Shown piece by piece: positions 7,519 to 56,466 of a stretch of 64,000 nt of DNA. A program made the position numbers and the translations under genes. This DNA is from the human T2T-CHM13v2.0 reference genome, Homo sapiens. The stretch lies in NCBI RefSeq assembly GCF_009914755.1, contig NC_060939.1. One strand, written 5' to 3'. Within the stretch, counting starts at the first letter, position 1; every line of letters begins with the position of its first letter. Under the pieces are notes generated by a model. The model was not told the DNA's origin and did no database searches. It saw only the letters and a list, made by a program, of their open reading frames with translations.

Positions 7519-9831
<2,313 letters not shown>

Positions 9832-17865: not shown

Positions 17866-17982
17866 GTTTTCCAGGATTTAGGGATGGAAGTACTGTCTGG
17901 AGTTGCCAAAGGCTATAACATATGCCTTTTTGCTTATGGACAGACAGGCTCTGGGAAGACATATACCATGCTGGGGACCCCA
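17866..17982 (+). CDS. STARD9: STARD9 exon ~4 (117 nt), P-loop: [39 protein letters not shown]
   Basis: tacag|GTT acceptor, CCA|gtgagt donor; Walker A GQTGSGKT. Confidence 0.97.
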
Positions 17983-18133
17983 GTGAGTATTACAATGATA
18001 TATATTCCTAATGCCACAGCAAGCCTGAACCTTGCATTGTCCTTACTACTGTGAGACAGAATATGATTTCTGTAGGCAGTCAACTTTAAAGAAGATTGAA
18101 TGAGCCTTCTTCTGTTTTAAGAATGAGTTTTTC

Positions 18134-36249: not shown

Positions 36250-43290
<7,041 letters not shown>

Positions 43291-45905: not shown

Positions 45906-46294
45906 GTATTTTCTGATAGATAATGGGAGTGGGAGGGAGAGTTCGGAAAATAACTCATGTTTTCATTTTGTCGCAATAGGGTAGACACAGGGTTCCTTTT
46001 GATAAGGTTACCTTCTGGTTTGGGGCATGAAAAGTTGATATTTGTCCTTGGTTTTAGAGTAGAATGCTGTCCTACTACCATCATTTCTCAAAGAGGGGAG
46101 TCTAAAAAATTATGTGACTCAAACATTCCATATCGTGAGTCTAAAGTCTTTAGGAATACCTAAAATATCCTATTGTATGCAGAAGGGATTAGGAAATATG
46201 ATACTTAAGTCTGTGTTCTCCAACCATTGTTTTGTTTTAATATATTTGCTTCATAATTCCTTCTTTCTTCCATTTTCTTTTTTCATCTTTTAAG

Positions 46295-46504
46295 CCCAGA
46301 ACTCCCAAGTTTTCAGCAGCTGCCAGAGCCTCAACAGCTCAGTCAGCAATGGTGGTGACAGTGGGATCCTTAGCTCTCCTTCTGGGACCAGCAGTGGAGG
46401 GGCACCCTCCCGAAGGCAGTCTTATATCCCATACCGAGACTCTGTGTTGACCTGGCTGCTGAAGGACAGCCTTGGAGGCAACTCTAAAACCATCATGGTT
46501 GCCA
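46295..46504 (+). CDS. STARD9: STARD9 exon ~12 (210 nt): Ser/Gly-rich loop-12 insert plus [26 protein letters not shown]
   Basis: tttaag|CC, CCA|gtgagt; [12 protein letters not shown] motif. Confidence 0.97.
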
Positions 46505-46711
46505 GTGAGTGGGATGCCAGAGCTGGACCTGTGTTGGGACTGGTACTCTATCTCAGAGAAAGGGCCATGGCCCCAGTGAGTGGGATGCCAGAGCTGGATC
46601 TGTGTTGGGACTGGTACTCTATCTCAGAGAAAGGGCCATGGCCCCAGTGAGTGGGATGCCAGAGCTGGATCTGTGTTGGGACTGGTACTCTATCTCAGAG
46701 AAAGGGCCATG
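46502..46711 (+). repeat. 71-bp tandem repeat, ~3 copies, each beginning with the exon-12 donor CCA|GTGAGT
   Basis: GT at 46505, 46576, 46647 (period 71). Copy 1 differs from copies 2/3 by one C/T at 46528. Confidence 0.97.
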
Positions 46712-46833
46712 ACCACCTAGGTTTCTCATTTCATCAGGGGTCTTATACAGCATGGGCAGTAGTAACAAGGCAAGTGATTAAGAGCTGGGATGGATGGGCT
46801 GGCATGTTTTTAAACTTTCTCCTTCTACCTCAG

Positions 46834-46931
46834 CGGTGTCTCCTGCACACACTAGCTACAGTGAGACCATGAGCACACTGAGATATGCATCCAGTGCCAA
46901 AAACATTATCAACAAGCCACGAGTAAATGAG
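46834..46931 (+). CDS. STARD9: STARD9 exon ~13 (98 nt): (T)VSPAHTSYSETMSTLRYASSAKNIINKPRVNE
   Basis: cctcag|CG, GAG|gtgaga; ETxSTLRYA, neck linker. Confidence 0.97.
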
Positions 46932-47212
46932 GTGAGACCTTTTCAGAAGTCCTGGTCTGGTATAGTTTACACAAAGCTTTCCTTATTTTTTTTTCTCTCG
47001 TGATTTCTTTCTCTTTGTACTCACCTCAACTTTCCAGACTTGTCCTCCAGATGATGAGGGAGTAGAATTCTTTCTTGTACTGTCATCTCCTTCTTTCCTA
47101 TCTCTACTGCCTTCATTCAGTAACCTTTTATGAATGACTTATTTCAGATACTTCTCTAAGGCCATTCCTCTTAAGATTTCTTAGTTTACCATTACTACTC
47201 TAAGAAAGGTCA

Positions 47213-47680
47213 TTTATTTTTTATTTTATTATTTTATTTTTAGAGACAGGGTCTCACTCTGTCACCCAGGCTGGAGCGCAGTGGTGCAATAATGGCTCAC
47301 TCTAAGAAAGTTCATTTAAAAAGTTTGTGTTTACTGCTTTTATTTTGAATTTATGTTGATTTATTCCTGTGTTTTTGTATTTGTTTGCCTGTTTTGAGAA
47401 GGGGTCTTGCTCTGTTGCCCAGGCTGGAGTGCAGCAGCACTATTGTGGCTCACTGCAGCTTCAACCTCCAGGGCTTAAGTGATTCTCCCACCTCAGCCTT
47501 CTGAGTAGCTGGAACCACAGGTGCCTGCCACCATGTTAGGCTGGTTTTCAAAAAAATTTTTGTAGAAACAAGGTCCCACAATATTGCCCAGGCTGGTCTC
47601 AAACTCCTGGACTCAAATGATCCTCCTACCTCAGCCTCCCAAAGTGCTGGGGTTACAGGTGTGGGCCAAAGTGCCCAGTC
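47213..47680 (-). mobile_element. Heavily 5'-truncated Alu (to ~47298) and AluJ (~47375-47680)
   Basis: TSD actctaagaaag[g/t]tcattta around the fragment. Confidence 0.85.
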
Positions 47681-47801
47681 TTATGCCTGTGTTTTTTTAT
47701 GCAAGTAGTCTGTGTTTTATTTTTCTCTATGCAAATTGCAGTGACTTCTCTGTTTAGATTAAAAGGAGAGTGTATGAATTCATTGGTTTTTGTTTATCCT
47801 T

Positions 47802-47803
<2 letters not shown>

Positions 47804-47839
<36 letters not shown>
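47804..47839 (+). repeat. (AC)n microsatellite, ~18 units
   Basis: direct reading. Confidence 0.95.
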
Positions 47840-47841
<2 letters not shown>

Positions 47842-47967
47842 CATACGTACACTGTTTTAAAAAGGCAATGTAATTAGGCAGTATAGGCTTAGTCACAATA
47901 CAGGAAGGTTAGTACCTACTACCTATACATGCCCTGGCTTTTGTGTTACCTGCTTGACCTCTAGGGA

Positions 47968-48153
47968 AATGATTCTCAAACTTTAGTGTGTATCCGAATC
48001 ACCTGGAGGGTTTGTTAGAATGCTGCTGGGCCCCAGTCCTTCAGAGTTTCTGATTTATTTGGTCTGGGGTGGGCCAAACTGTGCGTTTCTAACAAGTTCT
48101 TAGGTGAAGTGGGTGCTGCGGGTCCTGGGACCACAACTTGAGAATGACTGCTG
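47968..48153. mobile_element. MER5A-like element
   Basis: gattctcaaacttt...gaatcacctggaggg...tctaacaagttc...ttgagaatgactg. Confidence 0.8.
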
Positions 48154-48266
48154 TAGAGACTACTCCAAAGGAGTAATCTACCTCTTCCCAGCCAATTGCA
48201 ACTAGCATTTCACAGCTGAGTGGGACTTGATAACAATCAGTGGTGATGGAGTTCTCTGTGTTTCAG

Positions 48267-48344
48267 GATGCAAACTTAAAACTGATTAGAGAACTCAGAG
48301 AAGAGACTGAAAGACTGAAAGCCCTGCTGCTGAGCTTTGAACTG
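48267..48344 (+). CDS. STARD9: STARD9 exon ~14 (78 nt), neck coil: DANLKLIRELREETERLKALLLSFEL
   Basis: tttcag|GAT, CTG|gtatgc; LIREL neck-coil motif. Confidence 0.95.

Positions 48345-55757: not shown

Positions 55758-56466
<709 letters not shown>

What the first reader, a model, noticed from the sequence alone, without database searches (positions are those of the whole stretch)
46502..46711. 71-bp tandem repeat clones the exon-12 splice donor into two unproductive competitor donors
Seen: three near-identical 71-bp units start at the last 3 exonic bases, so CCA|GTGAGTGGG occurs at 46505 (true donor), 46576 and 46647 with identical -3..+6 sequence and downstream context. Residual introns would be 329, 258 and 187 nt, all spliceable. 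Donor 2 (+71 nt) reads exon 13 as RCLLHTLATVRP* (TGA 46870). Donor 3 (+142 nt) reads HGVSCTH* (TAG 46853). A 4th copy would restore frame but hit the TGA at 46648, so every extra donor is unproductive. Established: identical 5' splice sites compete, the intron-proximal one is often favoured, and such premature stops trigger NMD. Inference: copy number could act as a heritable dial on full-length STARD9. Near-identity of the units suggests a recent, possibly polymorphic origin. I cannot tell whether this has been described.
Basis: partly seen in the sequence, partly recalled or inferred. Interest (0 to 1): 0.85.

Follow-up and report, generated by a model that had tools for sequence, protein, structure and literature searches.

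The report
Minisatellite repeating a STARD9 splice donor
A 71-base stretch that starts at the end of a STARD9 exon is present three times in a row, so the intron carries two spare copies of the splice signal; this layout is already known from several human genes, where the spare copies are mostly left unused.

Summary
A 71-bp unit is repeated 3.0 times at 46502-46711 (99% match) and starts 3 nt before the end of the exon at 46295-46504. CCA|GTGAGTGGG therefore occurs at 46505, 46576 and 46647. The unit was found nowhere else in the genome. A coordinate comparison indicates that GRCh38 also holds three copies.

This layout is a described class: a minisatellite whose first unit spans an exon-intron boundary. 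Known cases are F7, CBS, interferon-inducible 6-16, LMNB2, PDGFA and ABCA7. In all six the most upstream donor dominates. In three of the six no spare donor is used at all. In F7 minigenes and in ABCA7 cell lines, repeat number did not change spare-donor use. The STARD9 annotation also uses only the first donor.

The most likely reading is a largely silent boundary-spanning minisatellite, not a copy-number dial. No RNA, population or ape data could be reached. I found no paper describing the STARD9 repeat. It is a new member of a known kind, of modest interest.

The parts
46295..46504 (+). It encodes kinesin motor profile positions 273-302 of 327.
   Evidence: Hub annotation; frame; Pfam PF00225, E 2.7e-11
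46502..46572 (+). Repeat unit 1 (C at position 27, G at position 69). It spans the exon-intron boundary and holds the donor in use, with GT at 46505-46506.
46573..46643 (+). Repeat unit 2 (T27, G69), with spare donor 2 (GT at 46576-46577). Its use would add 71 nt and shift the frame.
46644..46714 (+). Repeat unit 3 (T27, A69), with spare donor 3 (GT at 46647-46648). Its use would add 142 nt and shift the frame. TRF ends the array at 46711.
46562..46573 (.). Perfect 12-nt palindrome at the unit 1/2 junction, 2 nt upstream of spare donor 2. The same palindrome stands at 46633-46644, ahead of spare donor 3.
46633..46644 (.). Second copy of the 12-nt palindrome, at the unit 2/3 junction.
46648..46650 (+). 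TGA in the exon-12 frame. It stops intron read-through and would stop a hypothetical fourth-copy donor isoform.
   Evidence: stop 143 nt after the exon end
46834..46931 (+). Next exon (exon 13), encoding kinesin motor profile positions 305-327 of 327. It is the shared acceptor for all three donors.
   Evidence: Hub annotation
46853..46855 (+). TAG reached if spare donor 3 is used.
   Evidence: (peptide HGVSCTH*), counted from 46834
46870..46872 (+). TGA reached if spare donor 2 is used. It ends 59 nt before the exon 13/14 junction.
   Evidence: (peptide RCLLHTLATVRP*), counted from 46834

Best explanation
This is a small minisatellite of three 71-bp units. Its first unit spans the exon 12 / intron 12 boundary of STARD9, so the 5' splice site is repeated twice inside a short 329-nt intron. 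The architecture matches F7 intron 7, LMNB2, PDGFA, CBS, the interferon-inducible 6-16 gene and ABCA7 intron 18.

Shown:
- The repeat and the identity of the three donors.
- The reading-frame consequences of using each donor.
- That the annotated mRNA uses the first donor.

Inferred from the precedents:
- The splicing machinery takes the most upstream of the identical donors (5'-to-3' selection and exon definition).
- The two spare donors are functional in principle. They stay silent or are used in at most a few percent of transcripts, and those transcripts would be removed by nonsense-mediated decay.
- The spare donors would become the main site only if donor 1 were mutated, which would give a +71-nt frameshift and hence still loss of function.
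- Copy number is not expected to tune STARD9 output appreciably.

The repeat probably arose by local duplication or unequal exchange and is carried as neutral intron sequence.
For: - The repeat and the identical donors are real and the unit is unique to this locus.
- The hub annotation gives the exon end at 46504 in the selected transcript. None of the exons listed for the other 16 RefSeq transcripts ends at 46575 or 46646.
- Borensztajn 2006 (PMC1557585; abstract, Introduction, one Results section and Discussion read) describes the class.
  - In F7, with 5-9 identical sites, only the most upstream is used.
  - The spare sites work only when those upstream of them are inactivated.
  - Among 50 extra clones per transfection no other variant was seen.
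  - 8 to 12 repeats gave no change.
  - LMNB2 (100-bp unit) and PDGFA (81-bp unit), the two cases closest in unit size to 71 bp, use only the authentic donor.
- De Roeck 2018 (PMC5954066; passages and one section read) covers ABCA7. One-unit retention was 2 +/- 1% and independent of repeat size.
- GRCh38 and CHM13 have the same net length across the repeat. The gene models built on GRCh38 therefore saw the same three donors and still chose the first.
Against: - No RNA data were available here, and decay would hide transcripts made from the spare donors. Absence from RefSeq models is therefore weak evidence.
- In 3 of the 6 described genes (6-16, CBS, ABCA7) one or two spare donors are used. 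In ABCA7, cycloheximide raised the stop-bearing isoforms.
- A purine-rich stretch (AGAGAAAGGG) lies just upstream of spare donors 2 and 3. It could act as an enhancer for them; this is inference.
- The intron is short. Model-substrate work, which I recall rather than read here (Reed and Maniatis 1986; Eperon 1993), favours the donor nearest the acceptor.
- The F7 paper notes that early duplication experiments disagreed with one another.
Confidence: 0.72

Rival explanations
1. Spare donors 2 and 3 compete effectively with donor 1, the products are destroyed by nonsense-mediated decay, and copy number, if polymorphic, sets the fraction of productive STARD9 mRNA as a heritable dial.
For: - The donors are identical from -3 to +23.
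- The frameshifts and early stops are confirmed.
- Spare-donor use exists in 6-16, CBS and ABCA7.
- A paper title seen only in reference lists links the CBS repeat to reduced CBS activity (Lievers 2001).
- The proximity rule from model substrates is recalled, not read here.
Against: - In all six natural cases the upstream donor dominates.
- Repeat number had no effect on site choice in F7.
- Repeat size had no effect on one-unit retention in ABCA7.
- The hub table lists no transcript using the spare donors.
- Two of two reference assemblies appear to hold the same three copies, so polymorphism is not shown.
Confidence: 0.08
2. The repeat acts as a positive intronic element. Its G triplets (three per unit) and U1-binding spare donors mark the sequence as intron and raise the efficiency of splicing from donor 1. 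More copies would then mean more, not less, productive mRNA.
For: - There are 14 GGG in the 329-nt intron, 9 of them in the repeat. None lies in the last 100 nt of exon 12 and none in exon 13.
- G triplets in alpha-globin intron 2 are reported to enhance splicing and aid border recognition. This comes from one sentence in PMC1802585. McCullough and Berget 1997 itself was not held.
Against: - In F7, mutating the G triplets of the repeat did not change the splicing pattern.
- Nothing here tests efficiency.
- Three copies is a small dose.
Confidence: 0.1
3. Assembly or alignment artefact: the true locus has one copy.
For: None found.
Against: - The units carry two distinguishing substitutions.
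- An independent assembly (GRCh38) has the same net length between markers on either side of the repeat.
Confidence: 0.01

Closest known systems
F7 intron 7 37-bp minisatellite (Borensztajn et al. 2006, PMC1557585)
   Same: The first monomer spans the exon-intron boundary, so identical donors are repeated in the intron. The annotated or physiological mRNA uses the most upstream one. Use of the next site shifts the frame.
   Different: F7 has a 37-bp unit in 5-9 polymorphic copies, a weaker donor (TGG|GTGGGT) and experimental proof. STARD9 has a 71-bp unit in 3 copies, with polymorphism unknown and no experiment.
ABCA7 intron 18 25-bp VNTR (De Roeck et al. 2018, PMC5954066)
   Same: The VNTR begins at the donor of the flanking exon. 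Retention of one unit through the second donor gives a frameshift, an early stop and decay.
   Different: ABCA7 has 12 to hundreds of units. Its length effect is on skipping of the next exon and on disease risk, not on spare-donor use. Nothing comparable is known for STARD9.
LMNB2 (100-bp unit) and PDGFA intron 4 (81-bp unit) junction-reiterating repeats
   Same: They have long units close in size to 71 bp, the exon/intron junction is reiterated, and only the authentic donor is used (as summarised).
   Different: They have 10-18 copies rather than 3. I saw only the summary and the titles, not the original papers.
CBS exon 13/intron 13 31-bp VNTR and the interferon-inducible 6-16 gene
   Same: These are boundary-spanning minisatellites in which two spare donors are used besides the authentic one. 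For CBS, an association of repeat number with enzyme activity is in a title.
   Different: They have shorter units and many more copies (16-21 in CBS).

Membership tests
Minisatellite reiterating an exon/intron junction (F7 IVS7 type) | Head-to-tail array of units of tens of bases | tested here: met
   Period 71, 3.0 copies, 99% match, score 413
Minisatellite reiterating an exon/intron junction (F7 IVS7 type) | The first unit spans the exon-intron boundary, so the donor sequence recurs identically in the intron | tested here: met
   The unit starts at 46502 and the exon ends at 46504 (hub table). The donors at 46505, 46576 and 46647 are identical from -3 to +23.
Minisatellite reiterating an exon/intron junction (F7 IVS7 type) | The mature mRNA uses the most upstream donor | tested here: inconclusive
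   Met according to the hub's RefSeq table: the exon end at 46504 keeps the kinesin frame open and no listed exon ends at 46575 or 46646. No RNA reads could be examined.
Minisatellite reiterating an exon/intron junction (F7 IVS7 type) | Copy number varies between people (VNTR) | tested here: inconclusive
   Only two haplotypes could be compared, and only indirectly. GRCh38 and CHM13 show the same offset (42616986) on both sides of the repeat. No population data could be reached.
Minisatellite reiterating an exon/intron junction (F7 IVS7 type) | The spare donors become active when the upstream one is inactivated | not testable with these tools
   This needs minigenes or patient RNA.
Unproductive splicing coupled to nonsense-mediated decay | The alternative junction creates a stop more than 50-55 nt upstream of the last exon junction | tested here: met
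   The stops fall in exon 13 of 33 (positions by counting). The 50-55 nt rule is recalled textbook knowledge.
Unproductive splicing coupled to nonsense-mediated decay | The isoform exists and rises when decay is blocked | not testable with these tools
   No RNA-seq access. Full-text and supplement searches found no such junction.

The most novel reading that the evidence does not exclude
STARD9 transcripts use spare donors 2 and 3 at a substantial rate that decay hides from annotation. The 71-bp copy number varies among people or apes and acts as a splicing and expression QTL for this kinesin. That would be the first case in which repeat number itself sets spare-donor use.
Probability: 0.07. 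Interest if true: 0.55.

Novelty: new member of a known kind. Interest (0 to 1): 0.3.

Why it matters

On my reading, the value is practical.
- STARD9 adds a clean three-copy natural substrate with a long unit and a short intron. It could test why the first of several identical donors wins (5'-to-3' selection versus proximity).
- A mutation of donor 1 should shift splicing to 46576 and add 71 nt, which helps variant interpretation.
- Gains or losses of a unit, depending on how they are normalised, may be annotated as splice-donor indels although the junction sequence is unchanged (inference).
- Reads in the repeat can give false spliced alignments. I saw the EASTR paper, PMC10632439, only as a search listing and the start of its abstract.

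Tried and rejected
**Dispersed repeat family.** Rejected. The unit matches only the three local copies in the own genome, though that search gives lower bounds.

**RNA structure hiding the spare donors.** Inconclusive.
- Local-window unpaired probabilities of the 9-mers show no consistent difference across 3 settings.
- A global fold of exon 12 to exon 13 gives a mean unpaired probability over +1..+6 of 0.51 for donor 1, against 0.22 and 0.23 for the others.
- I do not lean on this. The F7 authors likewise found no explanatory structure.

**Donor strength.** No MaxEnt tables were on hand. By a simple count, the donor matches 6 of 9 consensus positions, within the 5-8 range of the 17 annotated donors in the window. 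All three copies score the same by any -3..+6 measure.

**Literature on the STARD9 repeat.**
- STARD9 + 'tandem repeat': 7 papers, none on this by title.
- STARD9 + VNTR: 1 paper, irrelevant.
- STARD9 + splice + nonsense-mediated decay: 1 paper, irrelevant by title.
- STARD9 + minisatellite: 0 papers.
- STARD9 + sQTL: 2 papers, the 1 listed irrelevant by title.
- Predicted GRCh38 junction coordinates: 2 chance number matches.

**Supplements.**
- Hamanaka 2023 has one STARD9 row, on a different repeat, and none of the junction coordinates. One of its files was not searchable.
- Bakhtiari 2021 lists two other STARD9 repeats, both labelled coding.
- Eslami Rasekh 2021 has none.
- The 1,019-genome structural variant paper has none in the one file held.
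- Stored supplement files may be cut, so these blanks are weak.

**Closed or unavailable.**
- Paper reading closed, so the second structural-variant paper was not checked.
- McCullough and Berget 1997 was not held.
- No primate or population sequence is reachable with these tools, so age and polymorphism stay open.

**Dating from unit differences.** Ambiguous. One possibility is a single substitution since the triplication, if A69 is flank sequence. The other is that unit 2 is a chimera of units 3 and 1, formed by unequal exchange from a two-copy allele. Near-identity alone does not show a recent origin.

Full report
**What is there.** Reading 46200-47000 and running Tandem Repeats Finder show a 71-bp unit repeated 3.0 times at 46502-46711, with 99% matches, no indels and a score of 413. 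The units starting at 46502, 46573 and 46644 differ at two positions only. Position 27 is C in unit 1 and T in units 2 and 3. Position 69 is G in units 1 and 2 and A in unit 3. Over the whole window, 6 rows score 80 or more. This array is the only minisatellite among them, apart from a 304-bp tandem pair that looks like two Alu elements. A search of the window's own 3.1-Gb genome with one unit found only these three copies (that tool's counts are lower bounds). This is a local triplication, not a dispersed repeat.

**Relation to the gene.** The hub's RefSeq table places a STARD9 exon at 46295-46504 and the next at 46834-46931. The repeat therefore begins with the last three exonic bases. CCA|GTGAGTGGG stands at 46505, 46576 and 46647. 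Donor 1 is identical to the others from -3 to +23.
- Joining the annotated exons gives an open frame that starts with a kinesin P-loop region (Pfam PF00225).
- The exon before the repeat covers kinesin profile positions 273-302 of 327. The exon after it covers 305-327.
- With donor 2 the exon grows to 281 nt, the intron shrinks to 258 nt, and the frame ends ...RCLLHTLATVRP*.
- With donor 3 the exon is 352 nt, the intron 187 nt, and the frame ends ...HGVSCTH*.
- Read-through of the intron stops at the codon that starts 143 nt past the exon end, at 46648.

Because 71 is not a multiple of 3, the frameshifts are a by-product of unit length. The stops lie in exon 13 of 33, so decay of such transcripts is the textbook expectation (recalled rule).

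**A second haplotype.** A supplement of Hamanaka 2023 (PMC10078293; supplement passage, methods passages) lists two GRCh38 features for STARD9: the intron chr15:42663917-42665253 and a GT repeat at chr15:42658289-42658318.
- The intron is 1336 long by LeafCutter convention. It matches window 46931 to 48267, an offset of 42616986.
- The window has its GT run at 41305-41332, which gives the same offset at the run's end.
- The two markers flank the 71-bp repeat, so GRCh38 and this assembly have the same net length across it, to within 2 bp.

GRCh38 therefore most likely also holds three copies. This is 2 of 2 haplotypes, compared indirectly. It says nothing about population variation.

**What it is.** A search on G triplets and splice-site choice led to Borensztajn et al. 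2006 (PMC1557585). I read its abstract, Introduction, first Results section and Discussion, and passages elsewhere. The paper describes this exact architecture as a class: minisatellites whose first monomer spans an exon-intron boundary, so that the donor recurs in the intron.
- **F7 intron 7** (37-bp unit, 5-9 copies): only the most upstream donor is used. The spare sites are functional but act only when those upstream of them are inactivated. Fifty extra clones per transfection showed no other variant. Constructs with 8-12 repeats behaved the same, and so did constructs with the repeat's G triplets mutated.
- **LMNB2** (100-bp unit) and **PDGFA** (81-bp unit): only the authentic donor is used.
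- **Interferon-inducible 6-16 gene** and **CBS**: the two next spare donors are used as well.
- **ABCA7 intron 18**, a sixth case (De Roeck 2018, PMC5954066; passages, one section): a 25-bp VNTR starts at the exon 18 donor. One-unit retention through the second donor shifts the frame, amounts to 2 +/- 1% of transcripts, rises with cycloheximide together with the other stop-bearing isoform, and does not depend on VNTR size. What does depend on size is skipping of the next exon.

The model needs three things: spare donors that compete well, a preference for the donor nearest the acceptor, and an effect of copy number.
- In 6 of 6 natural cases the upstream donor dominates. In 3 of 6 nothing else is used.
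- The two cases with units near 71 bp fall among those three.
- In the two cases where copy number was tested against spare-donor use (F7 minigenes, ABCA7 cell lines), it had no effect.
- For STARD9, the hub table lists no exon ending at 46575 or 46646 in any of 17 transcripts.

Several points weigh the other way.
- Decay would hide such transcripts.
- The intron is short.
- A purine-rich stretch lies just upstream of spare donors 2 and 3.
- Model-substrate studies that I recall but did not read favour the proximal site.
- The F7 paper itself notes that early duplication experiments disagreed.
- A CBS paper known to me by title only reports lower enzyme activity with the repeat.

I put the silent or nearly silent reading at about 0.72 and the dial at about 0.08.

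**Other features.** The intron holds 14 GGG, 9 of them in the repeat. The last 100 nt of the upstream exon and the whole downstream exon hold none. This fits the idea that G triplets mark small introns (one sentence in PMC1802585; the original paper was not held). In F7, however, such triplets were dispensable. A perfect 12-nt palindrome sits at both unit junctions, 2 nt before each spare donor. Predicted RNA accessibility does not separate the donors reliably.

**History.** There are two equally simple histories. In one, the triplication was followed by one substitution in unit 1, with A69 being flank sequence. In the other, a two-copy allele with two differences was extended by unequal exchange, which would make unit 2 a chimera carrying T27 of unit 3 and G69 of unit 1. 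No outgroup sequence was reachable, so near-identity cannot be read as a recent origin.

**Is it in print?** I found no description of the STARD9 repeat.
- Full-text searches for STARD9 with 'tandem repeat', VNTR, minisatellite, sQTL, and splice plus nonsense-mediated decay, and for the predicted GRCh38 junction coordinates, gave nothing relevant.
- Four supplements gave nothing at this place.
- Supplements are held only in part, one file could not be searched, and paper reading closed. This absence is therefore weak.
- Tandem-repeat catalogues and genome browsers, which I could not see, very likely list the array.

**Verdict.** The kind is known and experimentally dissected in other genes. 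The proposed mechanism runs against what those genes show. STARD9 is a new member of a known kind, of modest interest.

Noticed in passing
46615-46646 (and the same place in units 1 and 3): Each unit also holds an acceptor-like motif, CTCTATCTCAG|AG. Donor 1 to the AG at 46626-46627 would be a 123-nt intron, followed by a 19-nt stretch (46628-46646) that ends at spare donor 3. That is a conceivable micro-exon, and it also shifts the frame. The pyrimidine tract is short and I saw no clear branch site.
   Followed up: no
46562-46573 and 46633-46644: A perfect 12-nt palindrome containing CCATGG lies at both unit junctions. In the minimum-energy fold the two copies pair with each other and loop out unit 2. 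It might bear on how the duplication arose or on spare-donor access.
   Followed up: partly
41305-41332: A (GT)14 run in the intron upstream. Hamanaka 2023 lists it against the STARD9 intron 46931>48267 in tibial artery, with a last-column value of 0.80, which looks like no association. GRCh38's interval is 30 bp against 28 bp of pure GT here.
   Followed up: partly
47804-47839: A second dinucleotide run, (AC)n on the + strand, inside the intron that follows exon 13.
   Followed up: no
17980-17988: The first annotated exon in the window (17866-17982) has the same donor 9-mer, CCA|GTGAGT, as the repeated one. This is probably coincidence.
   Followed up: no
55841-56435; 9245-9507: A 304-bp period tandem pair whose consensus looks like Alu, and a TCTTCC array of about 45 copies. 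Both appear to be ordinary intronic repeats.
   Followed up: no
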